From the sequence record ON286973: a stretch of 64,000 nt of DNA; one strand, 5' to 3'. The notes under the pieces are model-generated. The model was not told the origin of the DNA and searched no databases. It saw nothing but the letters and a program-made list of their open reading frames with translations. Shown piece by piece: positions 43,973-61,418 of the stretch; within the stretch, counting starts at the first letter, position 1; each line of letters begins with the position of its first letter. Origin of the DNA: Escherichia phage A51.2. Both the position numbers and the translations under genes were made by a program.

Positions 43973-44141
43973 ATACCTATCGAAAGGACGGCAGGCACCG
44001 GTGACGGGGGAGACAACCACCGGGGATGGGCGCTGCATAAAATGAGAACGGTTATCATTATCATTTAAAAATTTATGCAAAAAATCCTTGCTTTCTTTGT
44101 CCTGTGTGATACTATAATAACAAGCCGGGGCAACAGGGGCC

Positions 44142-44164
44142 GGGAGACAATCACCGGGCCTGCC
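44142..44164. repeat. 23-bp repeat GGGAGACAATCACCGGGCCTGCC (plus orientation); variant copy at 44008-44025
   Basis: Identical to reverse complement of 34517-34539; preceded by TATAAT at 44114. Confidence 0.85.
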
Positions 44165-44397
44165 CGTTATTCTGCAAACGAGAATGATTATCATTCAAAA
44201 TTCTAAATGAGAACTCCTCGCATTTAATAAATTTAATTAGCACGCTAATTACCCTCCGTAACAATTTCCTATAAAACAGTATCCCATAAAATATTCCCGT
44301 ATAGAAATTTTAAAAATCCATTTCTGAAAACGAAAAATCGATTTCGTCCCCAAAAATTTTAGGCCAAGAGCCGGAGCGATTTCCAGAAAATCCGATT

Positions 44398-44488
44398 CAG
44401 AAAACGAAAAACAGATCGAGTACTGAGAAATTTATCGAGAAAAATTTTCAGAAAATTCAATCTTTGAAACGAAAAACAGATCGAGTAC
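44398..44488. repeat. direct repeats: ACGAAAAACAGATCGAGTAC x2 at 65-bp period, degenerate third copy at 44326
   Basis: Perfect 20-bp copies at 44404-44423 and 44469-44488 in AT-rich non-coding DNA. Confidence 0.8.
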
Positions 44489-44799
44489 CTGGAAAGCTGC
44501 ACCGCAACTTCAAGATAGTGGTTGGATTATTGCTATAAAAGGTCAAGGGTAAGTGGAGGAAGTTCTAGTAGCGAGATGTAAGCATGTGCGGGAAATCTAT
44601 AATGGTGGTCTGGAATATGGTGCAAACGGTAGGATGAGTGATTCAGCTTGTCGCGCCTACTCTGAAAAATCCATTTTAGTTTTCGATCCATTTTCTGATT
44701 TTCTAAGGATTTTAAAATATCCTGGCAGGTAAAATATCAAAAGGAGGAAATCCATTTTAGAAATCCTCCTGATCTCTGGCAACCTGATAACTTAAAATA

Positions 44800-45132
44800 T
44801 CAGGCTCCCAGTGTGTTCTTTCCTTTGTACAACCTTAAGGGTATAGTTTTTGTAACAGTCCATCTCCCCAGCCCTTCCCAGTTCCAGTTGTAGGCATGGT
44901 ACCCGGTTACGCATGCACTGCTAGAGTGGTCATAGGCATAAGAGAACGCTATACGCACCAAATGGAACCAGTCTTTCCACGGTTGTGGTCCGTAAGCTTT
45001 TCTCCAACACCGACACAAACTAAATGTCTCAAGAATAGGCAGGATAACAAATCCATACACCGCCACCAGAATAGCCAGCGCAATGATTGTCAGGAATACA
45101 TACCCTGCAGTTGAAACGATGATCTCTGTCAT
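44800..45132 (-). CDS. membrane protein (N-terminal TM segments)
   Basis: VFLTIIALAILVAVYGFVILPIL. Confidence 0.45.
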   Translation of the reverse strand: MTEIIVSTAGYVFLTIIALAILVAVYGFVILPILETFSLCRCWRKAYGPQPWKDWFHLVRIAFSYAYDHSSSACVTGYHAYNWNWEGLGRWTVTKTIPLRLYKGKNTLGA

Positions 45133-45332
45133 TTGTCGTCCCCTTTCTTACGGATATAGATGTGAGAACCTGCCTGTATATAAATTTCTCGACCATCTTC
45201 TGCGAAGATGTGGAATACACGGTCACCTTCGTACTCAATACGAGATATCTTCATAATGGTCTTTCCACCTGGGATACGGATCTCGTCCCCCACAGCGATG
45301 TTCCATGCAGATTTAAGCTTAAACATCTGCAC
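45129..45332 (-). CDS. hypothetical protein
   Basis: 67-aa ORF. Confidence 0.4.
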   Translation of the reverse strand: MQMFKLKSAWNIAVGDEIRIPGGKTIMKISRIEYEGDRVFHIFAEDGREIYIQAGSHIYIRKKGDDK

Positions 45333-45564
45333 CCTCCTTTGGGAACTTGAACTCTGGCATAGCCATATACGCTACAACAGGGTTGTGATCAAAGTAGAAC
45401 TGACCGTTAATTATCCCGGTTTTGTCCACATAGTTACCAGATCCTGCAAGAACAACCTCGCAAGCTCCGAAATCTACATTGCCATCCTCATCAGCCATGG
45501 CTACGATATACTTTCCAAGAGGCATGTTTTTAACGCCGTCTACAAATGTCCACCCTTTGCTCAT
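45319..45564 (-). CDS. hypothetical protein
   Basis: 81-aa ORF. Confidence 0.4.
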   Translation of the reverse strand: MSKGWTFVDGVKNMPLGKYIVAMADEDGNVDFGACEVVLAGSGNYVDKTGIINGQFYFDHNPVVAYMAMPEFKFPKEGADV

Positions 45565-45584
45565 ACTTTATCTCCTGCGCTTTC

Positions 45585-45917
45585 TTAAGGTAACCAGTAA
45601 ACAATCTCGCCTTTCAGCTTCATGTCGTTTCCAACATAAATTTCCCAGCCATCCATCTTAGCAACTGTAGGCCCAAAGTCATCCGCACCCCTTACCTCTT
45701 TCCAGGCTCCGTAGTCAGGTTGCCAGATATAGAATCCACCTTCTTTGTCCCATGCTCCGTACACTACGTTTAACAGGTTTCCCATTGCAACAATGGTGGG
45801 CCGTGGGAATAATACATCTACAGATGCGCCACAATTTCGAGTATCTTTTAAGTTGCAATCCCAAAAGATGTCTGCCAGTGTGGCGGCGATAGCTTTACGT
45901 CTTTCCAATGTTACCAT
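45585..45917 (-). CDS. hypothetical protein
   Basis: 110-aa ORF. Confidence 0.45.
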   Translation of the reverse strand: MVTLERRKAIAATLADIFWDCNLKDTRNCGASVDVLFPRPTIVAMGNLLNVVYGAWDKEGGFYIWQPDYGAWKEVRGADDFGPTVAKMDGWEIYVGNDMKLKGEIVYWLP

Positions 45918-45927
45918 GGCACGATAC

Positions 45928-46119
45928 TCACTTGTTGTTAATAAGTTCTAAAACTTTCTGTCTTACTTTGTCAAGGTCTGTTGATTCAAAAACTGTGCGA
46001 TATCCCCAACTTTGCCCATAAGAGTGACTGCAATCCCCGTAGCACCATTGCTCAATTTGATAGTATTCAAGGAACGGGTGCTGTCTAACTATGATACCAT
46101 CCCGGTTAAAAATTACCAT
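45928..46119 (-). CDS. hypothetical protein
   Basis: 63-aa ORF. Confidence 0.4.
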   Translation of the reverse strand: MVIFNRDGIIVRQHPFLEYYQIEQWCYGDCSHSYGQSWGYRTVFESTDLDKVRQKVLELINNK

Positions 46120-46182
46120 AATACATCACTCTCTGTTAGTTTATGCATATATTATACACTGCAGTTTTCAGATGTCAATCTT

Positions 46183-46377
46183 TTACAGGTTACTCCAGTA
46201 TAATCGGCATTTACATTTTGGGCAATGAGGTTCTTTTATGTAATAACCATCAGTCTTTGGAACACTTTTTGGTGCAGTTTTAAGATTGTACCTGGTAAAA
46301 CATCGGAAGCAGGTTACCTCTCCAACCTGTTGATCGTTGATCCACTCACCAGAGTAAAGCTCTTTCTTGTTTCTCAT
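46183..46377 (-). CDS. small zinc-ribbon protein
   Basis: ATG 46377 after GGGAGAG; CFRC...CPKCKC. Confidence 0.4.
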   Translation of the reverse strand: MRNKKELYSGEWINDQQVGEVTCFRCFTRYNLKTAPKSVPKTDGYYIKEPHCPKCKCRLYWSNL

Positions 46378-46628
46378 AATTCTCTCCCAAATCCTCTGCA
46401 ATCTTATACCAAAATCTCCAGCCAGAAAGCACACGGGAACACTTTGAGGATTGAATCTTTACTTGGCTCGGAAGTTCTTTTTCCGTATGGTAGGTAGAAA
46501 TACCCTCCTGCAGATTCGAATATAGCTCCTTCGGTTGTATCTACCACAGCAAGAATTAAGATTTTAGTCTCCACAGTGCTCTCCTCTCTTAGTTGTTGTG
46601 GAGACTATATCACCTCAGAAGATGGTCG

Positions 46629-47087
46629 TCAACACTTTTTGTACTCTACTACAACCACATCAATATCTGTGGTTGCAAGATTAATTACATCTTCTACATG
46701 TTCCCACTTTAGACCGCCAATACCGCATCCAATTTTAGGAATGTAGAACGGCAATGACACACCTTTGAATACCTCGTTGACTCGCTCAAAACCTTTCATG
46801 ATTGAGAAGTATTCAGCATTGGGCCCTGGGTAGAACTGGGTATACAGGTTGATTCCATATACGACCCTGTTCTTGGCAAAATGCTCCCAACAAGAAAACA
46901 TACCCAGCTTGTCTAGATTACCATAAGCAGTTTCTTTGTCGGCTGCCAGTGCTTGAGGGAACTCACGGGCAATATCTTTCGCTATACCTGCACCCATTGT
47001 GTGAAAGCAGTTACAACCGTGGATCATGTGGCCTGACCCTTTCTTGAAAATGGAGATTAGATCTCCACCTACAGTATCAATAATCAC
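46629..47087 (-). CDS. macrodomain protein, TARG1/DarG-like (ADP-ribose hydrolase family)
   Basis: IHGCNCFHTMGAGIAKDI resembles TARG1-type AHCISEDCRMGAGIA motif; probable GTG start at 47087 after GGAAGAGGAG. Confidence 0.6.
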   Translation of the reverse strand: MIIDTVGGDLISIFKKGSGHMIHGCNCFHTMGAGIAKDIAREFPQALAADKETAYGNLDKLGMFSCWEHFAKNRVVYGINLYTQFYPGPNAEYFSIMKGFERVNEVFKGVSLPFYIPKIGCGIGGLKWEHVEDVINLATTDIDVVVVEYKKC

Positions 47088-47502
47088 GGTATGCCAGCTC
47101 CTCTTCCGCAATTTCAAAAAACTCAGTCCAGCACTGTGGCATATTGGAGTTGCCGAAGTGGCTTTCATAGTAAAGGTTCTCACCACTTGGAAGATAGAAA
47201 TCTGTTACCTCATAGAATCCACAATCGTCGCACTCACCTTCTTCAAACTTGGCCTCAACCTTAATACCGAGGAAGGTGAAAAGTTTATGGATATCTTCAG
47301 TTTCGAACTCCCAGTGAATGTTGTTTTCCGCATCGGTGTAGAACTGGATCAGCAGACCCTTGTCCAGTTTACCAAAATACTCTGTGAAGTAACTTCCTTC
47401 CCAGAAATCTTTATGACAAATAATATCCATGCGTTTGCCCATAATAATGGTGTGAGCGTTTTGGGCATCGTCACGAATCAGTTTTGGCATTTCATAGATC
47501 AT
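47077..47502 (-). CDS. hypothetical protein
   Basis: 141-aa ORF. Confidence 0.45.
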   Translation of the reverse strand: MIYEMPKLIRDDAQNAHTIIMGKRMDIICHKDFWEGSYFTEYFGKLDKGLLIQFYTDAENNIHWEFETEDIHKLFTFLGIKVEAKFEEGECDDCGFYEVTDFYLPSGENLYYESHFGNSNMPQCWTEFFEIAEEELAYRDY

Positions 47503-47570
47503 CTTAGTTCTCCTGGTTCAACAGGTGGTGGCGCTACAGGAAGATCATAAAACATAGCTATCACAGTCTC

Positions 47571-47768
47571 TTACACAGGAATTGCTTCAAACAGGCCGTT
47601 ATCTATACCGTCCTTCAGATAGAGATTATATTCTATGTCGGTATCTGTGTAAAGGGCAGCATCCAGCATTCTATCTGTGAGTCCATCCATTGGGTGGATA
47701 AACCACCACCCACGCCAGTCAAAGTAACAGCCTGGTGCATCTTCTCTTACACGGATTCGATAAATCAT
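47571..47768 (-). CDS. hypothetical protein
   Basis: 65-aa ORF. Confidence 0.4.
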   Translation of the reverse strand: MIYRIRVREDAPGCYFDWRGWWFIHPMDGLTDRMLDAALYTDTDIEYNLYLKDGIDNGLFEAIPV

Positions 47769-47864
47769 GGGCAGTGGCCTCCTGTTAGTTATACATCCCA
47801 GTTTTCTTCGTTCATCACGTCCTCCCGTTCTATGAAGTTATAATTGCACACCTTTCAATCTGTG

Positions 47865-48281
47865 TCAACAGAAAACTTCAACAAATTCTTCCACAGTTTT
47901 AATGTCGTGGGAAAAAGGTTTACGGCTATAACGGGCAATAGCACTATCAACCACCGCCCGGTACTCCAAATCTTCAGAATATTTCATGAAGCATTGTAGC
48001 GTCTCTGGACAGATAGCTAAATAGCTCCACCACCCCTCTTCAGATTGGTAGTCGAATCCCATACTATCCAACCATGAAGCATATACGCCTGCACCCTCAA
48101 GCCAGTGAGTATTTTCATCCAGAAACTTGTTAATAGACATGTGAGCTTCTAAGCATTTATCCAGCTCTTTTCCGTTAACCAGCCACGCACTGACCGTGGC
48201 GCATCCAAGGTCTACAGATTGAGTTGACAGGTTGTATTGGTCATAGTTCTCAGGCTTAACAATGATATCTTCTAATGTCAT
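47865..48281 (-). CDS. hypothetical protein
   Basis: 138-aa ORF. Confidence 0.45.
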   Translation of the reverse strand: MTLEDIIVKPENYDQYNLSTQSVDLGCATVSAWLVNGKELDKCLEAHMSINKFLDENTHWLEGAGVYASWLDSMGFDYQSEEGWWSYLAICPETLQCFMKYSEDLEYRAVVDSAIARYSRKPFSHDIKTVEEFVEVFC

Positions 48282-48343
48282 TTTTCAGATCTCCTTATAC
48301 AAAAATGCCCCACCCTTTCGGGCAGGGCTATGTTAACTAGATG

Positions 48344-49570
48344 TTAAAAAGGGATGTCATCATCAAAGGTATACTGTGCTGGATTCTGATCCATTGGGTC
48401 ATCTTCCTCATCATTTACAGGAGGAGCGTCTACAGTGTTTTGCTGTGGAGCTGCTTCCTGTTTGGCAGCCTGGGGTTCTTGATAGTCAGTTGACCCAGCA
48501 CCGTTCTTGATCCAATCGTACAACGGTTCAGCCAGATTAGTCAAGACATCTTTTGCTTCTGCAGTAATTGCCGCTGCAAAATCATCAACTTTCGTTTTCT
48601 TGTCAATACGGCGACAAGCGTTCAACACCGCATTACCGACACTGGCACCTACTTCATCTTCAGTTCGGTTGGTGGCTTGAGCATACTCTTTCTTAAGCTC
48701 AATGGTGACTACGTGCAGTGTTTTAGCCACGCCCAGTGGGTCGTCTACCTTAAACCCGCGATCCAGGATGATCTGCAACGCATTGATGCTATGCCCCGTT
48801 TCCACACCGATAGGGTCGTAAGAGGATTTACGCTTGCCACCGGAGCCTTGAGTGCCGTTCTCTGCCTTAGGGGGATAGGCTTTGAAACCGCTGATAATGT
48901 TTCCGGTGTCTTTGTCAACAATGGCTGCAACACGACCACCTACCACCAGGTCTTTAAGCTGCTCATCAGTTACAACCATAGCACCTTCGCCAATCTTGTG
49001 GTCATTAACAGTAACCACGTTGCCAACAATCTGAGTCACATCGCCATAGATGCGTAAAACGTCCTGATTGGCATTCTGCTGAGGTTTCTGCTTCTGGCCT
49101 TGTGATTGTGCACCTTGTTGCTGTTTTTGCTGCTGAGTCGCTGCTGGAGCCTCTCCTGCACCCAGCTTGACCATCTTAGCCAGTGAGCCTTTGTAATAGG
49201 TCTTACCGTTATGCTCGTTTGCCTTCAAAGGGATATTTACGATCCATCCCGGCGTTACGGTTTCCCACTTGTCATCAATTTTAACAGAGACAGAGTCTTG
49301 ATGACCAGGTTTAAGCAGCTTATCACCCATGCTGATCCAAACTTCTTCACCACCTTGAAGCAGGTTATCAGAGGAATCCAGTTCAGAAATCAGTAAAGAG
49401 ATGGTGTGGCTGGATTCAATTTTCTTACCTTGCCACACAGTGGTTTTAATACCTGTTGTAGGATCAGCACCTTTGATAGGCTTGATGCTGACACGTTTAA
49501 TCATGCCGTGAGCCAGTAAAACAGTTTCACGCGGATTCATCGGGTTAGCGAATTGTTGAATAACGCTCAT
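48344..49570 (-). CDS. putative ssDNA-binding-type replication protein with host-SSB-like C-terminal tail
   Basis: 408 aa; Gln-rich linker; C-terminus ends DDDIPF (E. coli SSB ends DFDDDIPF); N-terminal fold not recognised. Confidence 0.55.
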   Translation of the reverse strand: MSVIQQFANPMNPRETVLLAHGMIKRVSIKPIKGADPTTGIKTTVWQGKKIESSHTISLLISELDSSDNLLQGGEEVWISMGDKLLKPGHQDSVSVKIDDKWETVTPGWIVNIPLKANEHNGKTYYKGSLAKMVKLGAGEAPAATQQQKQQQGAQSQGQKQKPQQNANQDVLRIYGDVTQIVGNVVTVNDHKIGEGAMVVTDEQLKDLVVGGRVAAIVDKDTGNIISGFKAYPPKAENGTQGSGGKRKSSYDPIGVETGHSINALQIILDRGFKVDDPLGVAKTLHVVTIELKKEYAQATNRTEDEVGASVGNAVLNACRRIDKKTKVDDFAAAITAEAKDVLTNLAEPLYDWIKNGAGSTDYQEPQAAKQEAAPQQNTVDAPPVNDEEDDPMDQNPAQYTFDDDIPF

Positions 49571-49935
49571 TATTTGTCTCCTTGTTCTTCGTTAGTGTTT
49601 GCCGTGTGTGCAAACCCTGCTTGAATTAATTTGTCCTGAACTTGAGCCAACAGCCCCATTGCAAAACTTGTGGTCCCAGAGAGGGCCATCAGCATATCTC
49701 GTTGTTGAGCTACCCAACCTAAGGCATAGTCCAAACGACGATATTTTTCTTCTTCACGCAGAGCTTGAAATAATTGTTCAGCCTCTGGTTGTTGTGTGAG
49801 CTCCTGAAGTCTTCCCATGAAAGAAGAAAGCACTAGCAGAAGAGACACTTGATCTTTACTTAACCCTAAGAAAAATTCTTGAGGTTGTTCTTGCTCGTTC
49901 ATCGCAACCGACGCTTGATCGTTCATTTGTTCCAT
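49570..49935 (-). CDS. hypothetical protein
   Basis: 121-aa ORF abutting the SSB-tail gene. Confidence 0.45.
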   Translation of the reverse strand: MEQMNDQASVAMNEQEQPQEFFLGLSKDQVSLLLVLSSFMGRLQELTQQPEAEQLFQALREEEKYRRLDYALGWVAQQRDMLMALSGTTSFAMGLLAQVQDKLIQAGFAHTANTNEEQGDK

Positions 49936-50018
49936 TATGGAATCTCCGATTTTATTTGAACAACATAGAAGGAGACACTATTTTAGCATCCCCTTCTGCA
50001 AATTACAATAGGTATTTG

Positions 50019-50264
50019 TTAGCCAATCACTTCGAAAGTTCCCCAATTCCCGTCCAGCAGGCAGGTGATCGGATCCCCATCGTCGTCAAAGATTTCAAAG
50101 TTTTCAGCATCCAGGATGTGGCCCTCAAACACAATACTTTCGTCGCCACCACCAGAAATAACAGCGTATTCCTTACCTTGAGTCAAGTTTTGACACCCTT
50201 TGCCACCAAAACCTACTTCAACACAACGTACTTTCTGTCCTGCGCGAGCAACTACTTCAGTCAT
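50019..50264 (-). CDS. hypothetical protein
   Basis: 81-aa ORF. Confidence 0.4.
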   Translation of the reverse strand: MTEVVARAGQKVRCVEVGFGGKGCQNLTQGKEYAVISGGGDESIVFEGHILDAENFEIFDDDGDPITCLLDGNWGTFEVIG

Positions 50265-50281
50265 CTTAAGGTCTCCTGATA

Positions 50282-50602
50282 TTAATCGTCAAGTTCAAAA
50301 TAGATTTTAACAGCTTCATCAAAGATTGGAATCCCGATGTTGTTAATAAGCTGCCAAACTACCATATCTTTACCTGGGTCGGGGAGAATGTCAACCTTTC
50401 TCCATGCGCTGTATATCCAGTTCGGACCACCTTCTGCACTAACTGGCAGATTTTCACCAGCCTCCTGCAGATACTTATACAGCAAAAGATATTCTGGATA
50501 CTCTAGAACACTGTCCTCTGTAGTATATAGCAGTTCACGGTATACTTTTAAGAACCCTGCGGGGGTGATGTTTTCAGTCTTCATTTGCTGCTTCTCCTGC
50601 AT
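50282..50602 (-). CDS. hypothetical protein
   Basis: 106-aa ORF, start uncertain. Confidence 0.4.
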   Translation of the reverse strand: MQEKQQMKTENITPAGFLKVYRELLYTTEDSVLEYPEYLLLYKYLQEAGENLPVSAEGGPNWIYSAWRKVDILPDPGKDMVVWQLINNIGIPIFDEAVKIYFELDD

Positions 50603-50966
50603 TCATCAGATCTGCCATAGCGTCACCCACGAAGAGAACAACCACATCGTTGACAGCGTCAGCATCATCTTTGTTGACGTTGCTGAATTTAGGACACACA
50701 GCAATGATCATATAGACACCGTTACCAACTTGAACTGTCCGTGTGGTGCACATCATGGCGGTATTTGTGCCTTCTTTGAAGGCGAAGCCTTGAAGACGCT
50801 CCTCTAAAGTGTTACCGGTAGATTTCAGAAGCGCCAGCTCGTCCAAGGCATAGATGATATCTCCGGAAGTTAGTGTTGCCTTGCCATCAGACACCATAAT
50901 CACTCCATCAGCACCATCAAGCTTAGAGGCTTCAAAGATATCGATATCCCAAATATTTTTCATCAC
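50574..50966 (-). CDS. hypothetical acidic protein
   Basis: 130-aa ORF. Confidence 0.4.
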   Translation of the reverse strand: MMKNIWDIDIFEASKLDGADGVIMVSDGKATLTSGDIIYALDELALLKSTGNTLEERLQGFAFKEGTNTAMMCTTRTVQVGNGVYMIIAVCPKFSNVNKDDADAVNDVVVLFVGDAMADLMNAGEAANED

Positions 50967-51235
50967 GCTTCCTCATCATCTAAGTAATCATCAAGAGAGG
51001 TGAAGATTTCACCGAAGTATTCTAAGATTTCTAGCTCACGTGTGGTGCAGCAAACATAATCGCCTTGGTCGTCCTTAATAGTGGCCTCTTTACCCAGAAT
51101 ATCTACTTCAAGTTCATCGTTCAACAGGACGGCCCCTGTGTAAACTTTGTCAGCTGTGCAGTCCCGAAAAGCAGAGTCCTTCTCCAGATAGTCTGGCTTA
51201 ACCTTGGCTTTAATTCGTTGATATTGTTTGGTCAT
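50963..51235 (-). CDS. hypothetical protein, paralogue of 51299..51553
   Basis: ATG 51235 after AAAGGGGA; shares KP.Y.E.D.AF.DCT and KDD.GD...CT motifs. Confidence 0.4.
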   Translation of the reverse strand: MTKQYQRIKAKVKPDYLEKDSAFRDCTADKVYTGAVLLNDELEVDILGKEATIKDDQGDYVCCTTRELEILEYFGEIFTSLDDYLDDEEA

Positions 51236-51298
51236 TGCTGTGGTCCCCTTTCGTTTTGATAGGGCCATTATAGTAGGCCCTATGACTGTTGTCAAGCA

Positions 51299-51553
51299 TT
51301 AATGTTCAGGTTTTACAAAAACTACTTCATTAACAGTGCACCAGACAGAGTCTCCTTCATCATCTTTAAAGGTAAGGCACTGTGCTGAGTTTTCCAACTC
51401 ATCAAGCTCTTCCTGTGATAGAGGAGCTCCTTCTTCCAGAAGGGCTTTTACCAAAGGGTTCTCACAAAACTCTGCTTCATAAATTGCACCGATTGTGCAA
51501 TCTTTAAAAGCTCGGTCATTTTCAACGCATTCTGGCTTCAGAGTAATTTTCAT
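51299..51553 (-). CDS. hypothetical protein, paralogue of 50963..51235
   Basis: 84-aa ORF, RBS AAGGAGA. Confidence 0.45.
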   Translation of the reverse strand: MKITLKPECVENDRAFKDCTIGAIYEAEFCENPLVKALLEEGAPLSQEELDELENSAQCLTFKDDEGDSVWCTVNEVVFVKPEH

Positions 51554-51629
51554 CTTAGCGGTCTCCTTAAGTGTTAAACAATCAACGCTCTGTTTGTGTG
51601 AAGCATCTTATATCTAATCTTACTTCCTG

Positions 51630-52028
51630 TCAACGACTATTTTCGATCATCCACCAAGGATCAAGATAAGTTTGTTGACTTTTTGCCCACTGACAAACTT
51701 CATTGTACATCTGAACCTCGTTGTCCGTCAATTCACGAATAGGTTCATCTATACCCTCATTTTTATGGTAATCCCATTCTGCGTCTATCTCCCACAGCCA
51801 TGACTTGTTGTCACCACGCTTACGCACACAAAAATCACCAGGGCGGCCTGCCAGTGCATTTAAGAACTCGTTCTCCGCTCGCTCCTGGAGAATACTAAGG
51901 AGCAAAACGTTGGAGCATGACCGTAAAATATGCTTCAGCTCACAATCATCAATCTCAACTTCAATACGTTGTTTGACTGTGTGGGTACCTTTTACTAACA
52001 TCCTGCCTCCTCTAAACGAACTCTGCAA
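51630..52028 (-). CDS. hypothetical protein
   Basis: 132-aa ORF. Confidence 0.45.
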   Translation of the reverse strand: MQSSFRGGRMLVKGTHTVKQRIEVEIDDCELKHILRSCSNVLLLSILQERAENEFLNALAGRPGDFCVRKRGDNKSWLWEIDAEWDYHKNEGIDEPIRELTDNEVQMYNEVCQWAKSQQTYLDPWWMIENSR

Positions 52029-52206
52029 GAGTTGTGTTGTTCACTGCACCGCAGTAAATGGAGTATCCCAGCCCATTAGAGTGCAGAAACCACGGCGTGC
52101 CGAAATTATCTTTCACGTAGACATCACCGTTGTTTGTAAAGGGCCAATATTCTTCACCAAGGGTAAAATACCTATTCATACCTTCAGCAAGATACTTTAC
52201 TTTCAT
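52012..52206 (-). CDS. hypothetical protein, three-member paralogue family
   Basis: Shares (F/Y)F..G..Y......KD..G..W(Y/F)...... pattern with next two genes. Confidence 0.4.
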   Translation of the reverse strand: MKVKYLAEGMNRYFTLGEEYWPFTNNGDVYVKDNFGTPWFLHSNGLGYSIYCGAVNNTTLAEFV

Positions 52207-52430
52207 AGGTCCTCTTCAACAACTACAAACTTGGCAAGCAAAGTGGTTCCGTAGATATGATACTCACCGTTTGCCAGGTGAGAGATATACCAGGCAACCC
52301 CTTCCTCGTCTTTAATCATTTTGTTTGCACGAGCTTTATCGTAATAAACCTCGTAGGTCTTTCCTTCTTTAAAGAATGACAGGTCTGTCATCTTTTCTTC
52401 TACAAAGGTAGCTTTAACCAAAGTCGTCAT
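52203..52430 (-). CDS. hypothetical protein, three-member paralogue family
   Basis: FFKEGKTYEV...IKDEEGVAWYI. Confidence 0.4.
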   Translation of the reverse strand: MTTLVKATFVEEKMTDLSFFKEGKTYEVYYDKARANKMIKDEEGVAWYISHLANGEYHIYGTTLLAKFVVVEEDL

Positions 52431-52711
52431 TGATCGGTCTCCTTCTTGTTAAGTCTGAATACTGCAATAATAGCATTCCCAAGGTGCAGTGTCAAGTCAT
52501 TTCCAAGATACCACAGCATCCCACGGTCATCTTTAATGAAAGGGTAACAATCTGGTGCCTTCCAGACATTGTACACTTTCCCAACCTGAAAGAAATCAGG
52601 CCCTGTTGGGATTTTGGTGCCAGGCCACACTTGAGATACCTGAACACACTCCACCTGCATAATAACAGGAATGGTCATGGATGTAAATGTTTTTGTTGGC
52701 TCTACTACCAT
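52427..52711 (-). CDS. hypothetical protein, three-member paralogue family
   Basis: ATG 52711 after AAGAGGAG; FFQVGKVYNV...IKDDRGMLWYL. Confidence 0.45.
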   Translation of the reverse strand: MVVEPTKTFTSMTIPVIMQVECVQVSQVWPGTKIPTGPDFFQVGKVYNVWKAPDCYPFIKDDRGMLWYLGNDLTLHLGNAIIAVFRLNKKETDQ

Positions 52712-52760
52712 AAAAGTCTCCTCTTTGCTCAACAGCACCTCCCTGTGCTGATAGTTTACA

Positions 52761-55538
52761 TTAGTGACAATCACCCCAGTTACGACCGCACAAGTATTCA
52801 CCTGTGATCTGGAATGGAACGCCCATCATTTTAGAAGCTTGCCAGAAGCAATGCACCACCATTTCACCCACAGGGCTCCAGATAAGTTCAAGCTTTCCGT
52901 CATCGTTCAGGATAGGATCGTACACCGTGTTTCCGTCTCTGTCAACCACTTCGTTTCCGTTTTCATCCTTGCGTGCCTTTTTGTACTTATGACCGTCGAA
53001 CACATGAAGTTTGGCTTCCTGCTCTGCCTTAAATGCTTCCAATTCTTCAATTGTGTCGAAGGTGTACACAGTCTTATACTTAGGTGTGTCAGGGACCTGA
53101 AGTTGGTACTCATCATGGTAATAAATAATACGACGGACACCTTCATCGTACCACCCACGCTTCACCATTTGGTGGTGCATGAGTATCCCAACTAAGTCAC
53201 ACAGCGATGCACCACCATTTTGTTGGTATGCATTAAGTAAAGAGTGTTTAGATCGGGTCCAGATAGCATGACCATCAAAAGAGTAGATAAACTTCTTACC
53301 TGTTGCTTCCCAGAATTTCTCCAGATCCTCTTTGCGCCCCTTAAGACCGGGGTTGGCATCCCAAAGTGCATCGATCACCCTTTGCCCCAACTCTGGGGAG
53401 ATATCCAGCATATCTGCGACTTTATCTTTTTGTGCCCCGTACATAACCCCATACGTGATAGGTTTACCGTCGTTACGAGACACCTCTCTGCCTGCTACTT
53501 TTGTATATGCCTCAGCATTGTTTTGGTGTGCGTCTCCGTTACTTACAACATCATAGTACAAGCCGTTGTCGAACTCAAAGGCACCCCAAGCCCCGATAAG
53601 CTGCTCTAAGTTGGACCCGTCAATACCGATCTCAAAATATCCAGGAGGAACACCCCACAAGCTACGCATCTCTTTACCCATAACCACTTTAGGAGATGGT
53701 TTAGGCATGTTTGCACAAATACTGTGTTTCTGTCGGGAAGTGTTTGTTAATCCAGAGCTTTTAGCAGGAAGCTTATGGTCAATCTTCAAACGTGGGTGAT
53801 TAAGAAGACCAGTATCAACCTTATCCTCCTTGATTGGATCAAGGACCGATCTGCGGTTTCGCAATGATAACCACAAGACGATATCTTTAGCCATCTCTCC
53901 GTTCAATTTTTCAAGATTCGGACATAGGTGTCCAAACGTATCTTTCAGTTGCGGAGAAGTAATAAGTGCCCTGGCTTTTCTGCGTATTTTCCCGAACACT
54001 TCCTTTTTAATCCTTTCGGAGTTAGGAAAGCTTCGGAACTTGTGCACTGTTGTCTGAAACTTAGCATCAGTTTTGTTCCAGAAGTTGATAATTAGGTCAC
54101 AATACTCTGACTCTAAAAGCTCGTCCATGTATGCATATACTCGTGCATCAACATCTGCATCAGGTAGAGCTTTCTTCTTGCTGTCCTTAGTTACATCCTT
54201 AGTTCTCCACATTGTCGGAAGCCAACCAGCACTGATCAGGTATCGCTTAATGTCGTCCTGATTGCTGATTTTCATAGGTATCTTGCAGTCAGGCATTCGC
54301 TTCTGCTGCAGATCACTTATTGCCTGATCCATCAGCTCTTTAGGTAAAGGTTGTGGTGTGGAGGTGCCCTTAATATAACCTCTCAAGAAATCAGCCATCT
54401 TGTCGGGGTCTTTGCAGCCCATCTCTTCGCACCATTTTATCCCCATCTTGCTGACATCTCCTGTGGAGGTAAATGCTCGCTTAGGCGGGGCTTTGAATTC
54501 TAAGGCGCTCATGTCTACAGGATAGCCAAGCTTATCTTTTAACCATTTCCAACCATTATTGGAGATTGTCCCATCTTGGTTAAACGGCTTTTCAGGGAAC
54601 TTGGGCCGCTGAGACATTGACAACTCTTTTAAAGGAAGTTGAGGTTCAACACGATCAGCGATCTCTTTCATCCACGCATCGCAACGGTCACGTAAAGCAA
54701 TAGCCCCATCTATGTCGAAATACACACCCTGACGGGCCTGCAGCTCCATCAGGAAGTGCTGCAGCATGCCTCGGCGTAATGCGTTCTTCCAGGTGATTTT
54801 CTTGAACCCTTTCGGCTTCTCTTTGGCTGGATCGTACATAAAGTTCTGCATGTCAGATTTGCCGTAGAATACACCTTTTGATTCCGCTATCAGCTCTTTC
54901 CAGAGCAGCTCCTGGATGATAACGTCCTCGAATACACGATCCACATACTTCCACAACGGAAGATCGCGCCAGTCATCAATTTGAACTTTCTGGTTACCAA
55001 GGGCGTAGCCCCATGCCATAAGGCCGTGAGGACCAACAGGCTGCATTTTCTTAGTAACCGGGTTGAATACAGAGTCCGGACAACCTTTTGGTAAAGGGCG
55101 ATCAGGCCACAAGATTCTGCTCATCGCCAACGTATCAAACAGGTTAACCTGGTGGTCGTTGATAGTCCCCATGCATTTAGGATCACGGAACATATCAAAA
55201 TGAATACCGGATAATCTTTCCATCAGCATAAAGTCATAACTGTAGCAGTTATGGCAGTTCAAAGCTGTTGGTGACCAGTCGGAATTGCCTGTAAGCCAAC
55301 CTTCCAACTCCGAAAAATCTGCTATGCGAACTTCAAAATCTTTATGAAGAGTTTTCTTTGCCAGAATAAAGTTCTTAGCCTTCTCTATATCCTCTTCGGA
55401 GTAGTGTGTGCGGTCATTTAGAGGAAGGAACAGCATAAAACGGTTCTTATTCAGCTCTTTAAACAGGCCGCAGTGATAATAAAGATCTGGATCTTCCAGC
55501 AAACCGGATGACTCAAAGTCGAACGACCACATGCTCAT
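52761..55538 (-). CDS. DNA polymerase, family A, with 3'-5' exonuclease domain
   Basis: 925 aa; exo motif FDFESSG; Pol motif A-like DGSNLEQLIGAW, motif B-like KPITYGVMYGAQ, motif C YYHDEYQ. Confidence 0.85.
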   Translation of the reverse strand: MSMWSFDFESSGLLEDPDLYYHCGLFKELNKNRFMLFLPLNDRTHYSEEDIEKAKNFILAKKTLHKDFEVRIADFSELEGWLTGNSDWSPTALNCHNCYSYDFMLMERLSGIHFDMFRDPKCMGTINDHQVNLFDTLAMSRILWPDRPLPKGCPDSVFNPVTKKMQPVGPHGLMAWGYALGNQKVQIDDWRDLPLWKYVDRVFEDVIIQELLWKELIAESKGVFYGKSDMQNFMYDPAKEKPKGFKKITWKNALRRGMLQHFLMELQARQGVYFDIDGAIALRDRCDAWMKEIADRVEPQLPLKELSMSQRPKFPEKPFNQDGTISNNGWKWLKDKLGYPVDMSALEFKAPPKRAFTSTGDVSKMGIKWCEEMGCKDPDKMADFLRGYIKGTSTPQPLPKELMDQAISDLQQKRMPDCKIPMKISNQDDIKRYLISAGWLPTMWRTKDVTKDSKKKALPDADVDARVYAYMDELLESEYCDLIINFWNKTDAKFQTTVHKFRSFPNSERIKKEVFGKIRRKARALITSPQLKDTFGHLCPNLEKLNGEMAKDIVLWLSLRNRRSVLDPIKEDKVDTGLLNHPRLKIDHKLPAKSSGLTNTSRQKHSICANMPKPSPKVVMGKEMRSLWGVPPGYFEIGIDGSNLEQLIGAWGAFEFDNGLYYDVVSNGDAHQNNAEAYTKVAGREVSRNDGKPITYGVMYGAQKDKVADMLDISPELGQRVIDALWDANPGLKGRKEDLEKFWEATGKKFIYSFDGHAIWTRSKHSLLNAYQQNGGASLCDLVGILMHHQMVKRGWYDEGVRRIIYYHDEYQLQVPDTPKYKTVYTFDTIEELEAFKAEQEAKLHVFDGHKYKKARKDENGNEVVDRDGNTVYDPILNDDGKLELIWSPVGEMVVHCFWQASKMMGVPFQITGEYLCGRNWGDCH

Positions 55539-55596: not shown

Positions 55597-57675
55597 TTAA
55601 AAAGGTGTTTCATCATCCTCAAAACCAGGGACCGGATCAGAGGATGGATCATCGTATTGGAGGTCTTCCTGCGTGTCAATAGGCTTGACAGTGGGTGTTA
55701 CAACCTTATCAGCCACAACCTTGCCCATAGGTGTTTCTACAACTGCATGCTCTTGATCCTCAAACATAGCCTGAGGTCTCCAAACAACCTCCCCACCTTC
55801 TCCGTCTGTAAACATCTGCATTTCTTTGTCCCAGTACCAATTACTGGCATCATGGAACTTACCTGTATGCGGATCCATAACTAAAGTGTCAGCAATACCT
55901 AAAGTTTTTGCTGGACGGTTTTTAAGACCTACCAGACGGACACGTCCACGAGAACGATCCACCATTTCTTCGGCCTCGACACCTATGACTACCCAACTCA
56001 ACTGTTCAAGCCCAGCCGATCCTCGCAAATTCTCTTTTCGCACAGGATACCAGAAAGGTAATGGGTTACCATCCTTGTCCTTAGGGGGCACAATCTCTGT
56101 ACGTTTGAGGTGAGCGATCACCAAGATAAACACGTTAAACTGCTTACAAAACGCAGCCAGTTGGGTCATAGCCATGTCCAGTTCTTTTCGCTCATCCTTA
56201 ACATTAAGCCCTGAAATTACCATGGACAGGTGATCCAGCACAATATAACGGCAATGGTACAGGCAAACCATTTGCTTAAGCTTGGTAATCAACTCGTCCA
56301 CCGGAATAGATCCGAAATGTTTGAACACTTTGATTTTTCCAGCTTTTGCCCATGATTGGTGGATCTCTGCGTGTTCTTGATCAGTTAAAAACTGGCTAGG
56401 ATCTTCAACAAACTCTTTAACATCAAACCCTAACTGGTTTGCATACAAGGAGTTAATTGCTTCCTCTGGGTCCTCCTCAAGATGGATCATACATAGACGA
56501 TCATCCTCTTCATAGTCATCAGCCTTCGGGCATGTCGGGTCCATTAGGTATCTTGCAATACAATGTTCCAGTTTTTTAGCTACAGTTGTTTTACCGCCCC
56601 CTGATGGCCCTGTAAGCATTACGAGTGTCCCTTTGTGCAAGCCTTTTAGCATTTTTTGCAGTTTTGGGAACTCTGCGCTGATATCTACCCCGTTGGAAGT
56701 CTTTTTCCGCAAAGACTCGATAGAGAAGTCTTCTAAATCCGACACAGCATCAGGCACATATTTAACAGGGTGCCGGAACATGTTGACAATATCTTCCAGC
56801 TTTTTAGCCTTCAGCATGTCACGGATATCTTTTACCCCGTCAGGGTCATTTACTTCACCAGGGTATTCTACGTGGTAAACGTTATCAGCCATCAAAAATG
56901 CTGCGATATTGTGCGTGGCCTCAACACCTTTAATGACGTGTTTTTGCTTCTCTACCTCGTTAGCTGCATCGTTATCCATTGCCAGCACAACTGTTCCATA
57001 GCTACGGATAAACTTCTCATTGTTTGCAAAAGTATCTACTGCGTTTGCACATCCACAGTTAATTCCAACAAAAGGCAGGCAGGGTTTTCCTGCCAGATCA
57101 CCACCGTTGATAACTGCGTCGATCCCGTCCTGGACCTCTTTAGCCCACTGCTTCACCTTTGCCGGGGCTTTAGCGTTGGTGAGAATCCCTTTTACTTGTA
57201 TCTGATATGCAGCCTGCCATGCTGCAATAACATCACCTTCTCCCTCACAAACGTTAATCTGCTTACGGTTGTTGGAAGATGCACACAGCTTTTGACCAAA
57301 CATCTGGGAGTTGGCCTTTACGATGCCAACAACGGAGAAGTGGCCCCTTTGTTCTTTAGGAATAGTCCAGTCACGCTTTTTGAAACCGGACAGATTTCCG
57401 TAGCGGTCGTAATATGGGAAATATGTTGCAGTGACTGTCACACCGTCTTCTTGTGACAATGCTGATCGCACACCAAAATATTGTGCAGCCATCAGACCGA
57501 TATTTTGTTGTGGGACAGGGACAATTTTAGTATTTTCTAAAACAGTCTCTACAGTTTCAACTTCTTTTTCATCACGATAGTCTCGTTTCACACTTCCCCC
57601 ACTTTTATACTTAGTTGCTTTCGGGTTTGGCTCACCGAAACGGTTGTATGCAGATGCCATAAATTTACTTCCCAT
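55597..57675 (-). CDS. bifunctional primase-helicase (T7 gp4-like: TOPRIM plus DnaB-type helicase)
   Basis: TOPRIM-like EGEGD and DNDAANE; Walker A LTGPSGGGKTT; Walker B IVLDHL. Confidence 0.8.
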   Translation of the reverse strand: MGSKFMASAYNRFGEPNPKATKYKSGGSVKRDYRDEKEVETVETVLENTKIVPVPQQNIGLMAAQYFGVRSALSQEDGVTVTATYFPYYDRYGNLSGFKKRDWTIPKEQRGHFSVVGIVKANSQMFGQKLCASSNNRKQINVCEGEGDVIAAWQAAYQIQVKGILTNAKAPAKVKQWAKEVQDGIDAVINGGDLAGKPCLPFVGINCGCANAVDTFANNEKFIRSYGTVVLAMDNDAANEVEKQKHVIKGVEATHNIAAFLMADNVYHVEYPGEVNDPDGVKDIRDMLKAKKLEDIVNMFRHPVKYVPDAVSDLEDFSIESLRKKTSNGVDISAEFPKLQKMLKGLHKGTLVMLTGPSGGGKTTVAKKLEHCIARYLMDPTCPKADDYEEDDRLCMIHLEEDPEEAINSLYANQLGFDVKEFVEDPSQFLTDQEHAEIHQSWAKAGKIKVFKHFGSIPVDELITKLKQMVCLYHCRYIVLDHLSMVISGLNVKDERKELDMAMTQLAAFCKQFNVFILVIAHLKRTEIVPPKDKDGNPLPFWYPVRKENLRGSAGLEQLSWVVIGVEAEEMVDRSRGRVRLVGLKNRPAKTLGIADTLVMDPHTGKFHDASNWYWDKEMQMFTDGEGGEVVWRPQAMFEDQEHAVVETPMGKVVADKVVTPTVKPIDTQEDLQYDDPSSDPVPGFEDDETPF

Positions 57676-61076: not shown

Positions 61077-61418
61077 CTACTCAAGGTCTTCAGAGTCAAG
61101 CTCAAAAAGAATCAAACTGTGCATGCCTGCAGATAGATTAACACACCCTGCAACAATAAGGGTCTGATAGTAAGGTTCAGCACCCTCAATGTCTTCGTTA
61201 AAATCCACAACAAGGTAGTCACCTTTGTTAAAGGTGTATTTGTCCGATGTAAACGCAAAACCTGCCCAGTCCCCTACTGCAGGGTCTTTATCAGTCACCT
61301 TTGTTAACAGTAGATCTTTTTCACGGGATCTTTTAGTAAAATCGTGAATCACAACATCCTTCTCTTCAGGAGTTGGATTGCCACACACGTAGTTAACTAT
61401 ATTTCTCCACAAACTCAT
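61077..61418 (-). CDS. hypothetical protein
   Basis: 113-aa ORF. Confidence 0.45.
   Translation of the reverse strand: MSLWRNIVNYVCGNPTPEEKDVVIHDFTKRSREKDLLLTKVTDKDPAVGDWAGFAFTSDKYTFNKGDYLVVDFNEDIEGAEPYYQTLIVAGCVNLSAGMHSLILFELDSEDLE

What the first reader, a model, noticed from the sequence alone, without database searches (positions are those of the whole stretch)
46629..47087. TARG1/DarG-like macrodomain among replication genes: candidate counter to ADP-ribosylating defence
The protein carries an HGCNCF-HTMGAGIA motif like the catalytic region of TARG1/DarG-type macrodomains, which remove ADP-ribose from proteins and from ssDNA. A phage macrodomain next to the SSB-like, polymerase and helicase genes could reverse DarT-type DNA ADP-ribosylation or other ADP-ribosyltransferase defences.
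Basis: partly seen in the sequence, partly recalled or inferred. Interest (0 to 1): 0.75.

Follow-up and report, generated by a model that had tools for sequence, protein, structure and literature searches.

The report
Phage macrodomain, T4 AdfM/Tk.4 homologue

Summary

The window is a Vequintavirus (rV5-like E. coli phage). The protein is 39% identical to T4 Tk.4 (E 3e-43). It is 68% identical to the Krischvirus protein in the tk.4 slot.

A 2025 preprint renamed Tk.4 AdfM after showing that its deletion sensitises T4 to DarTG2. The best explanation is therefore an early, dispensable, stand-alone hydrolase that strips DarT2-installed ADP-ribose from thymidines in phage DNA. This is inferred by homology and not shown for this protein.

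One refinement: it is neither a DarG nor a TARG1. The catalytic lysine position holds a family-invariant glutamine, as in Streptomyces SCO6735, which also cleaves thymidine-linked ADP-ribose. There is no DarT-binding domain and no adjacent DarT gene.

Supporting points: DarTG2-sensitive T5 lacks the family, some members are fused to NADAR domains, and the syntenic Bas54 gene is non-essential.

Verdict: new member of a known kind, modest interest.

The parts
46629..47087 (-). Macrodomain gene (152 aa; GTG start, TGA stop), a homologue of T4 Tk.4/AdfM
47098..47103 (-). Shine-Dalgarno GAGGAG, 10 nt upstream of the GTG start
   Evidence: Read directly from the sequence. Murica RefSeq annotates a ribosome-binding site at the equivalent place.
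46980..47021 (-). ADP-ribose-binding loop 1, HGCNCFHTMGAGIA (residues 23-36), which includes the conserved Asn26
   Evidence: Coordinates verified. N26 is found in 119/121 and 139/139 family members. It aligns with SCO6735 N27 and DarG N22, whose mutation cripples activity (PMC9411070; PMC13309987).
46836..46850 (-). NLYTQ (residues 80-84). Gln84 occupies the position of the catalytic Lys of DarG (K80) and TARG1 (K84), and of the essential Gln85 of SCO6735.
   Evidence: Profile-to-PDB alignments and MAFFT alignment. Q is found in 119/121 and 138/139 family members and K in none. SCO6735 Q85A is inactive (PMC9411070).
46713..46739 (-). Diphosphate-binding loop 2, PKIGCGIGG (residues 117-125). 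Gly122 corresponds to SCO6735 G128. Gly124 replaces TARG1 Asp125.
   Evidence: P117, G120 and G122 are invariant.
47077..47502 (-). Upstream 141-aa acidic protein of unknown function, translationally coupled to the macrodomain gene by an 11-nt overlap. Listed as context only. There is no evidence that it works with the macrodomain.
47625..47653 (-). Nearest sigma-70-like promoter upstream on the coding strand (TTTACA-17-TATAAT, 11/12). It is a candidate early promoter for the 141-aa gene plus the macrodomain gene.
   Evidence: Consensus scan only. In 44000-53000 there are 25 sites against 16.6 +/- 4.3 expected, 21 of them on the minus strand. A strong terminator-like hairpin at 48328-48307 precedes the unit. 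Function not shown.

Best explanation
The gene encodes a stand-alone macrodomain ADP-ribosyl glycohydrolase of the T4 Tk.4/AdfM family. The phage probably makes it early, from host-type promoters.

Proposed mechanism:
- When the phage infects an E. coli carrying DarTG2, the freed DarT2 toxin ADP-ribosylates thymidines in single-stranded phage DNA and blocks replication.
- This enzyme binds the ADP-ribose through its two glycine-rich loops and hydrolyses the ribose-thymine bond, restoring normal DNA. It acts as an orphan, antitoxin-like eraser.
- Chemically it should work like Streptomyces SCO6735 rather than like DarG. The catalytic lysine is replaced by an invariant glutamine (Gln84), which is held by Asn26. 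Gln84 would position the distal ribose for attack by an activated water molecule.

Shown here: the ORF, the fold, the class, homology to Tk.4, and the active-site residues. Shown in the literature for relatives: T4 tk.4 is needed on DarTG2 hosts, and SCO6735 and PhiKZ gp104 cleave thymidine-linked ADP-ribose. Inferred: that this vequintavirus protein has the same substrate and role.
For: - Family membership: 39% identity and E 3e-43 to T4 Tk.4. 68% identity to the Krischvirus UPWr_E1 protein in the syntenic regB-vs.1-vs-[macro]-...-tk slot.
- Genetics of the homologue: tk.4 was the single hit of a T4 transposon screen on a DarTG2 host, and a clean knockout became DarTG2-sensitive, so it was named adfM. 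T4 lacking adfA and adfN stays DarTG2-resistant (PMC11825919).
- Active site: Asn26, Gln84 and Gly122 align with SCO6735 N27, Q85 and G128. All three are required for cleavage of thymidine-linked ADP-ribose. Gln is near-invariant in the family (119/121 and 138/139).
- DarG models recognise the protein: PADLOC DarG HMM E 1.7e-12 and NCBIfam DarG E 1.4e-11, over the macrodomain part only.
- Correlation: T5, the DarTG2-sensitive control phage, has no family member at E<=10 over its unique genome, while T4 scores 1.2e-50 in the same pipeline.
- Domain fusions: family members are fused to NADAR, the DarG1/AdfN-type guanosine-ADP-ribose DNA hydrolase domain (P0185, P0219, P0235).
- Accessory character: the syntenic, same-length Bas54 gene bas54_0092 took insertions at 31/31 TA sites and T4 tk.4 at 45/46, so both are non-essential on DarTG-free K-12.
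- The gene is under purifying selection (dN/dS 0.11).
Against: - No experiment exists for this protein or for any vequintavirus on DarTG2 hosts. The HIDEN-SEQ preprint did not challenge its Bas54 library with DarTG2.
- Identity to T4 Tk.4 is only 39%, so substrate specificity could differ.
- For T4 AdfM itself, DNA de-ADP-ribosylation is inferred by the authors and was not assayed.
- The two lysines that position DNA in SCO6735 (K34, K89) are not conserved here. Position 33 is Ala, and the longer loop that carries K89 is absent.
- The family is about equally distant from DarG, TARG1, Poa1p and SCO6735/BT1257 (profile E 2e-14 to 2e-12). Homology therefore does not single out a DNA substrate.
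- The T5 correlation rests on one sensitive phage.
Confidence: 0.6

Rival explanations
1. The protein is a broad or different-target ADP-ribosyl eraser. It would remove ADP-ribose from proteins or RNA modified by other host ADP-ribosyltransferase defences or toxins, with DarT2-modified DNA at most one substrate among several.
For: The closest structural class includes TARG1, which acts on protein Glu/Asp-ADP-ribose, and SCO6735, which also de-modifies auto-ADP-ribosylated PARP1. The family is very large and spread over many phage groups and hosts: 2739 phage records and 8444 clusters at E<=1e-10. That breadth would fit a general activity.
Against: In T4 the only phenotype reported is specific to DarTG2, and tk.4 was the single hit on that host. 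The fusions are to NADAR, a DNA-base ADP-ribose hydrolase domain. No ADP-ribosyltransferase other than DarT2 has been linked to the family. From my own memory and not checked here: T4 carries Tk.4 yet is restricted by the mRNA-ADP-ribosylating CmdTAC system.
Confidence: 0.2
2. The protein is a small-molecule enzyme, as the database label 'phosphatase' implies. It would be an ADP-ribose-1''-phosphate phosphatase (Poa1p-like) or an O-acetyl-ADP-ribose deacetylase that processes NAD-derived metabolites during infection.
Against: These labels are transferred from domain models and were not tested. No source of ADP-ribose-1''-phosphate (a Tpt1-type RNA-splicing pathway) is evident in the context examined. 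The T4 phenotype is defence-specific. The Gln/Asn pair matches the DNA-active SCO6735.
Confidence: 0.1
3. The protein is mainly a stoichiometric inhibitor. It would bind DarT2, or ADP-ribose or ADP-ribosylated DNA, and block the toxin without needing catalysis, as catalytically dead SCO6735, DarG and TARG1 can do in vitro.
For: SCO6735 Q85A, DarG K80A and TARG1 K84A all inhibit DarT activity in vitro. The gene is a divergence hot spot between otherwise near-identical vequintaviruses: 78% nucleotide identity against 92-100% in the flanks. That could reflect matching to different DarT variants.
Against: Every residue needed for catalysis in SCO6735-type enzymes is near-invariant across thousands of clusters, which argues for an enzyme. 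dN/dS is 0.11 with dS 1.19, which indicates old alleles exchanged by recombination rather than rapid adaptive change of a binding surface. The protein has no equivalent of the DarG C-terminal DarT-binding domain.
Confidence: 0.05
4. The protein regulates the phage's own ADP-ribosylation programme, erasing marks written by phage enzymes such as T4 Alt, ModA and ModB.
For: T4 encodes both ADP-ribosyltransferases and Tk.4 (established knowledge of T4).
Against: The family occurs in many phage groups not known to encode Alt/Mod-type enzymes, including vequintaviruses, felixounaviruses, Klebsiella, Pseudomonas and Vibrio phages. No ADP-ribosyltransferase was seen among the annotated neighbours. However, the whole vequintavirus genome was not screened. 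The T4 knockout has no phenotype on plain K-12.
Confidence: 0.03

Closest known systems
T4 Tk.4 = AdfM (anti-DarT factor Macrodomain), HIDEN-SEQ preprint, bioRxiv 10.1101/2025.11.20.689424
   Same: Both are single-domain proteins of about 150 aa. They share 39% identity (E 3e-43) over the full length, with the same loop 1 (HGCNCFHTMG[AS]G[IV]A), the same NLYTQF motif carrying Gln at the catalytic-Lys position, and the same loop 2. A Krischvirus protein in the tk.4 slot is 68% identical to the window protein. Both genes are dispensable on K-12.
   Different: The genome context differs: a vequintavirus early-gene array rather than the T-even vs/tk cluster. Identity is only 39%. The anti-DarTG2 activity is shown genetically for T4 only.
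Streptomyces coelicolor SCO6735 (PDB 5E3B) and Bacteroides BT1257 (PDB 2FG1/2AFC): Gln-type ALC1-like macrodomains
   Different: Identity is only 22-25%. The phage family lacks the longer loop that carries K89 and has Ala in place of K34, the two DNA-positioning lysines of SCO6735. SCO6735 is a bacterial chromosomal gene in a DNA-damage regulon, not a phage gene.
DarG2 antitoxin macrodomain (T. aquaticus 5M31/5M3E, M. tuberculosis 5M3I) and its phage derivative PhiKZ gp104 'AdfM' (Cell Rep 2026, PMC13309987)
   Different: DarG and gp104 use a catalytic Lys (K80/K78, FPTK motif), whereas this protein has Gln. gp104 is a close DarG relative (38% identity to Mtb DarG; PADLOC DarG 133 bits), while the window protein is distant (21-23% identity; 45.5 bits). 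DarG has a C-terminal DarT-binding domain and sits next to darT, and neither feature is present here. Two unrelated groups therefore gave the name AdfM to two different macrodomain lineages.
Human TARG1/OARD1 (PDB 4J5R)
   Same: It is the best Foldseek match (E 1.5e-9, TM 0.75-0.81) and is similar in size. The MGAGIA and PRIGCG loops are shared.
   Different: The TARG1 catalytic dyad Lys84/Asp125 is replaced by Gln84/Gly124. TARG1's main known substrates are protein Glu/Asp-linked ADP-ribose.
AdfN (phage NADAR orphan antitoxins; Nat Commun 2025, PMC11825919), and AdfA and AdfB
   Same: AdfN follows the same strategy: a phage-borne, antitoxin-like eraser of DNA ADP-ribosylation. Members of the window protein's family occur naturally fused to NADAR domains.
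   Different: NADAR is an unrelated fold that is specific for guanosine-ADP-ribose (DarT1) and inactive against DarTG2. [quoted passage not shown]

Membership tests
Macrodomain superfamily (Pfam PF01661) | Sequence match above the curated threshold, and the three-layer alpha/beta/alpha macro fold | tested here: met
Macrodomain superfamily (Pfam PF01661) | Intact ADP-ribose-binding loops (loop 1 with the conserved Asn; the Gly-rich diphosphate loop 2) | tested here: met
   HGCNCFHTMGAGIA and PKIGCGIGG are present. N26, G34, G120 and G122 are invariant in the family. Binding itself was not assayed.
ALC1-like / TARG1-DarG-Poa1p-SCO6735 class of macrodomains | Closer in structure and profile to this class than to the MacroD, viral Mac1, PARG or macroH2A classes | tested here: met
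T4 Tk.4 / AdfM family (Gln-type phage macrodomains; PHROG 335) | Full-length homology to T4 Tk.4, with the shared NLYTQ motif | tested here: met
   BLASTP gives 39% identity and E 3e-43 over 150 of 152 residues. PHROG 335 matches at E 5.5e-59. The Krischvirus protein in the tk.4 slot is 68% identical. Q84 is shared.
T4 Tk.4 / AdfM family (Gln-type phage macrodomains; PHROG 335) | Required for phage growth on DarTG2-carrying hosts but dispensable otherwise | not testable with these tools
   Only the second half is indirectly supported. The syntenic Bas54 gene bas54_0092 is non-essential on K-12 (31/31 TA sites hit). No DarTG2 challenge of a vequintavirus was found in the literature.
DarG (type II antitoxin of DarTG2; NCBIfam NF048014) | Catalytic lysine (K80 in T. 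aquaticus DarG) | tested here: not met
   Gln84 aligns with DarG K80 in the profile and MAFFT alignments. No family member has Lys at this position.
DarG (type II antitoxin of DarTG2; NCBIfam NF048014) | C-terminal DarT-binding domain, and a full-length match above the equivalog cutoff | tested here: not met
   The protein is 152 aa and covers only positions 8-144 of the 338-position model. It scores 44.2 bits against a cutoff of 250. The PADLOC DarG match covers positions 9-143 of 329.
DarG (type II antitoxin of DarTG2; NCBIfam NF048014) | Encoded next to a darT toxin gene | tested here: not met
   The neighbours are a 141-aa protein with no Pfam hit and small ORFs of 83 aa or less. No DarT-sized or DUF4433-like gene is present.
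TARG1/OARD1 | Catalytic Lys84/Asp125 dyad | tested here: not met
   Gln84 and Gly124 occupy these positions.
SCO6735/BT1257-type (Gln) DNA ADP-ribosyl hydrolases | Gln at the catalytic-Lys position, held by the loop 1 Asn, and the PB-loop Gly (SCO6735 Q85, N27, G128) | tested here: met
   Q84, N26 and G122 align with these residues and are near-invariant.
SCO6735/BT1257-type (Gln) DNA ADP-ribosyl hydrolases | DNA-positioning lysines K34 and K89, and the extended loop after the Gln | tested here: not met
   Position 33 is Ala (93-112 members have Ala and only 2 have Lys). The 5-7-residue loop insertion that carries K89 is absent. Identity to SCO6735 is only 25%, so common descent of the Gln cannot be told from convergence.
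Poa1p-like ADP-ribose-1''-phosphate phosphatases (source of the 'phosphatase' label) | Demonstrated phosphatase activity on ADP-ribose-1''-phosphate, and the Poa1p active-site residues | not tested

The most novel reading that the evidence does not exclude
The Tk.4-type macrodomains may be an old, phage-borne lineage of ADP-ribosyl-DNA hydrolases that is mechanistically distinct from DarG. They would use Gln-assisted, water-mediated chemistry, as proposed for SCO6735, and would not be recently captured 'orphan antitoxins'. On this reading, the two deeply diverged alleles that recombine into the same vequintavirus locus differ in specificity for different DarT2 variants or for other ADP-ribosylated nucleic-acid targets. 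The family would then be a tunable, exchangeable counter-defence cassette.
Probability: 0.2. Interest if true: 0.5.

Novelty: new member of a known kind. Interest (0 to 1): 0.3.

Why it matters
If the inference holds, vequintaviruses (rV5-like phages, often proposed for E. coli phage therapy and biocontrol) carry a built-in anti-DarTG2 factor. That helps predict their host range on DarTG2-positive strains.

The analysis also clarifies the field's nomenclature. The name 'AdfM' currently covers two different macrodomain lineages. One is a DarG-derived Lys-type (PhiKZ gp104). The other is a large Gln-type lineage (T4 Tk.4 and this protein), whose chemistry should resemble SCO6735 rather than DarG.

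The Macro-NADAR fusions suggest that some viruses combine erasers for thymidine- and guanosine-linked DNA ADP-ribosylation in one polypeptide. None of this changes the overall picture. It extends a mechanism published in 2025-2026 to another phage genus.

Tried and rejected
1. Longer ORF. The GTG at 47186 would give 185 aa. I rejected it because it would overlap the upstream gene by 110 nt. Homologues start at the MII/MIV position, and an SD precedes the 47087 GTG. Some GenBank records start at the internal ATG (Met21, giving 132 aa). I rejected that too, because it removes the conserved first beta-strand.

3. A 90%-identity cluster that mixes the macrodomain with the 141-aa protein. This looked like a possible natural fusion. 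The only bridging sequence found is one chimeric 121-aa call on a single contig (P0015). The two frames differ by one base and there is no slippery site. I treated it as an artefact.

4. Positive selection as the cause of the divergence trough. Rejected: dN/dS is 0.11 with dS 1.19, against 0.03-0.29 in the flanking genes. This indicates allele replacement.

5. NADAR (AdfN-like) gene in the window. A three-sequence mini-profile found nothing. The test is weak and covers only about half the genome, so it is inconclusive.

6. The 408-aa 'SSB-like' protein. It has no Pfam or PDB sequence match. Only the C-terminal DDDIPF tail and the essentiality of its Bas54 counterpart support a replication role.

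7. LeRoux et al. 2022 (PMC9250638) is not held in the library, so I cite it only through PMC11825919.

8. A full-text search for 'AdfM' was swamped by journal DOIs.

Full report
**Observation.** The stated interval 46629-47087 is one ORF on the minus strand. It has a GTG start at 47087 and a TGA stop at 46631-46629, giving 152 aa. A GAGGAG Shine-Dalgarno lies 10 nt upstream. The start overlaps the stop codon of an upstream 141-aa ORF (47077-47502) by 11 nt. The first 20 residues are conserved in the homologues of T4 and of a Krischvirus. RefSeq annotates the same 459-nt CDS in phage Murica as 'phosphatase; contains Macro domain'. The motif HGCNCFHTMGAGIA is residues 23-36.

**What the window is.** A 4-kb stretch around the gene is 96-99% identical to more than 100 Vequintavirus genomes (rV5-like E. 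coli myoviruses such as Murica, PDX, naam and BASEL Bas48-59). It is also 99% identical to some records labelled 'Campylobacter phage'.

The gene lies in a long minus-strand array. In order of transcription this runs:
- Dda-like helicase (61415-62785)
- two DNA methyltransferases
- primase-helicase (55597-57675)
- family-A DNA polymerase (52761-55538)
- about ten small unknown genes
- a 408-aa protein with an SSB-type C-terminal DDDIPF tail (48344-49570)
- a strong terminator-like hairpin (48328-48307)
- three unknown genes
- the macrodomain gene

Sigma-70-like promoters are enriched on this strand: 25 found against 16.6 +/- 4.3 expected, 21 of them on the minus strand. That would fit early, host-polymerase transcription, but this is inference. 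'Among replication genes' is therefore only loosely true, because the immediate neighbours are of unknown function.

**Relation to a characterised protein.** tblastn finds homologues in 2739 phage records, among them T4 Tk.4. Pairwise, the window protein and Tk.4 are 39% identical over the full length (E 3e-43). A Krischvirus (Straboviridae) protein is 68% identical to the window protein. It sits exactly in the tk.4 slot of the T-even gene order, regB-vs.1-vs-[macro]-...-tk. This ties the vequintavirus gene firmly to the Tk.4 family.

A November 2025 preprint (HIDEN-SEQ, bioRxiv 10.1101/2025.11.20.689424) reports three things. tk.4 was the single significant hit when a saturated T4 transposon library was grown on a DarTG2 host. 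A clean deletion sensitised T4 to DarTG2. The authors renamed the gene adfM and proposed that it removes ADP-ribose from DNA. This closed a gap left by Johannesman et al. 2025, who showed that T4 lacking adfA and adfN remains DarTG2-resistant (PMC11825919). Independently, a 2026 Cell Reports paper gave the same name to PhiKZ gp104. It showed biochemically that gp104 removes DarT2-installed ADP-ribose from thymidine (PMC13309987).

**A refinement: it is not a DarG or a TARG1.** In profile and MAFFT alignments, the catalytic Lys of DarG (K80) and TARG1 (K84) corresponds to Gln84 of the window protein, in the motif NLYTQ. TARG1 Asp125 corresponds to Gly124. Gln is present in 119 of 121 close homologues and in 138 of 139 cluster representatives. 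Lys is never present.

The same position is Gln85 in Streptomyces SCO6735 and Gln in Bacteroides BT1257. SCO6735 cleaves thymidine-linked ADP-ribose from DNA and protects against DarT, and its Q85A, N27S and G128E mutants are inactive or crippled (PMC9411070). The window protein keeps all three residues (Q84, N26, G122). It lacks the two DNA-positioning lysines of SCO6735 and the extended loop that carries one of them.

PhiKZ gp104, by contrast, has the DarG motif FPTK. It is 38% identical to Mtb DarG and scores 133 bits on the PADLOC DarG model. The window protein scores 45.5 bits and T4 Tk.4 36 bits. The NCBIfam DarG equivalog scores 44.2 bits against a cutoff of 250 and matches only the macrodomain part. 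There is no DarT-binding domain and no neighbouring darT.

So two different macrodomain lineages now carry the name AdfM. One is a DarG-derived Lys type (PhiKZ). The other is a large Gln type (T4 Tk.4 and this protein), roughly equidistant from DarG, TARG1, Poa1p and SCO6735.

**Further evidence on function.**
1. T5 is the DarTG2-sensitive control phage in both E. coli studies. It has no hit to the family profile at E<=10 across its unique genome. The same pipeline finds T4 Tk.4 at 1.2e-50 and a single copy in the window.
2. An exhaustive profile search finds 17,767, 8,444 and 1,284 50%-identity clusters at E<=1e-3, 1e-10 and 1e-30. Among the longer top-scoring members, three are fused to NADAR domains. 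NADAR is the DarG1/AdfN-type hydrolase of guanosine-linked DNA ADP-ribosylation. Two are fused to DUF4326. One such fusion lies in contigs made almost entirely of ORFans, which looks viral. These fusions link the family to the erasure of ADP-ribose from nucleic acid.
3. In the HIDEN-SEQ supplement, the Bas54 (Vequintavirinae) gene bas54_0092 has the same length (459 nt) as the window gene. It also has the same 11-nt overlap with a 426-nt upstream gene. It took insertions at 31 of 31 TA sites. T4 tk.4 took 45 of 46. Both are non-essential on DarTG-free K-12, as expected of an accessory counter-defence gene. I equate bas54_0092 with the window gene by synteny and length only. The Bas54 library was not challenged with DarTG2.

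**Population genetics.** Compared with vequintavirus 10C2, the macrodomain gene is a sharp trough of identity: 71-87% per 150-nt window and 78% overall. The flanks are 92-100% identical. Synonymous divergence is near saturation (dS 1.19, against 0.03-0.29 in neighbouring genes), and dN/dS is 0.11. In the phage database the protein falls into bands of 95-99% identity (45 records) and 80-90% identity (54 records). This points to old alleles swapped into a conserved locus under purifying selection. It does not point to rapid adaptive evolution.

**Mechanism and confidence.** The most likely reading (about 0.6) is an early-expressed, stand-alone glycohydrolase that removes DarT2-installed ADP-ribose from thymidines of phage ssDNA. 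Gln84/Asn26 would position the distal ribose for water-mediated cleavage, as proposed for SCO6735. The rivals are:
- a broader or different-target eraser acting on protein or RNA (0.2)
- a metabolite phosphatase or deacetylase, as the database label implies (0.1)
- a mainly stoichiometric DarT or ADP-ribose binder (0.05)
- a regulator of phage-encoded ADP-ribosylation (0.03)

That the protein is a functional ADP-ribose-binding macrodomain of the TARG1/DarG/SCO6735 class is near certain. Its substrate and role rest on 39% homology to a genetically characterised protein and on residue conservation.

**Novelty.** The family and its anti-DarTG2 role were published in 2025-2026, and the gene has long been annotated as a macrodomain. 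This is a new, untested member in another phage genus. The useful additions are the Gln-versus-Lys distinction, the Macro-NADAR fusions and the allele-replacement pattern. Interest is modest.

Noticed in passing
window 48344-49570 (-): A 408-aa protein ends in ...YTFDDDIPF, the acidic C-terminal tip typical of bacterial SSB. It has no Pfam hit, no PDB sequence hit, and falls in PHROG 4477 ('unknown function'). Its syntenic Bas54 counterpart bas54_0087 is scored Essential in HIDEN-SEQ (8/57 TA sites). It may be a divergent phage SSB or a protein that mimics the SSB tail.
   Followed up: partly
window ~48340-48350 (between the 408-aa gene and the 138-aa gene): Presence/absence polymorphism of a roughly 620-bp 'endonuclease VII / homing endonuclease' gene. 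It is present in 10C2, Bas54, Mangalyan, navn and SophiaRose, and absent from this window and from Murica.
   Followed up: partly
whole window (compared with MG065654, MG065666 and others): Sixteen records labelled 'Campylobacter phage' (C15, A12a, C5, C2 ...) are 96-99% identical to E. coli vequintaviruses and to this window. The host labels look doubtful.
   Followed up: no
window 44744-45042 (-), about 1.6 kb downstream of the macrodomain gene: A second local trough of identity against vequintavirus 10C2 (73-87%, with flanks at 94-100%). It falls in and near the 110-aa ORF 44800-45132 and may be another exchanged cassette.
   Followed up: no
window 47051-47067 (-), inside codons 7-12 of the macrodomain ORF: A perfect 6-bp hairpin, GGAGAT-cta-ATCTCC, is followed by ATTTTC. 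Murica RefSeq annotates it as a terminator. It lies just after the upstream gene's stop and could attenuate read-through into the macrodomain gene, or it could be chance. The consensus scan did not call it.
   Followed up: partly
window 51295-51267 and 46178-46151 (-): Two perfect 12/12 sigma-70 consensus promoters (TTGACA-17/16-TATAAT) lie on the coding strand of this array of small unknown genes. This suggests strong host-polymerase-driven early transcription units.
   Followed up: no
P0185 (L010 6268-7686; L011 8001-9419), P0219 (L009 114-1250), P0235, P0175: Natural fusions of Tk.4-type (Gln) macrodomains with NADAR and/or DUF4326 domains. P0185 is Macro-NADAR-DUF4326 and sits in ORFan-rich, virus-like contigs. 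These are possibly single-polypeptide erasers of both thymidine- and guanosine-linked DNA ADP-ribosylation. DUF4326 may belong to the same functional network.
   Followed up: partly
protein clusters of P0001 / P0015 (window 47077-47502 and 46629-47087): The 90%-identity cluster of the macrodomain also contains the unrelated upstream 141-aa protein. A single 121-aa chimeric gene call (P0015) matches both. This is probably a frameshifted assembly or a clustering artefact rather than a real fusion.
   Followed up: partly
vequintavirus 10C2 allele, L003 3001-3459 (residue 33): The second vequintavirus allele class has Lys at position 33 (HTMGKGIA), like DarG and SCO6735 K34, a residue important for activity on DNA in SCO6735. 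The window allele has Ala there. This is a possible functional difference between the alleles.
   Followed up: no
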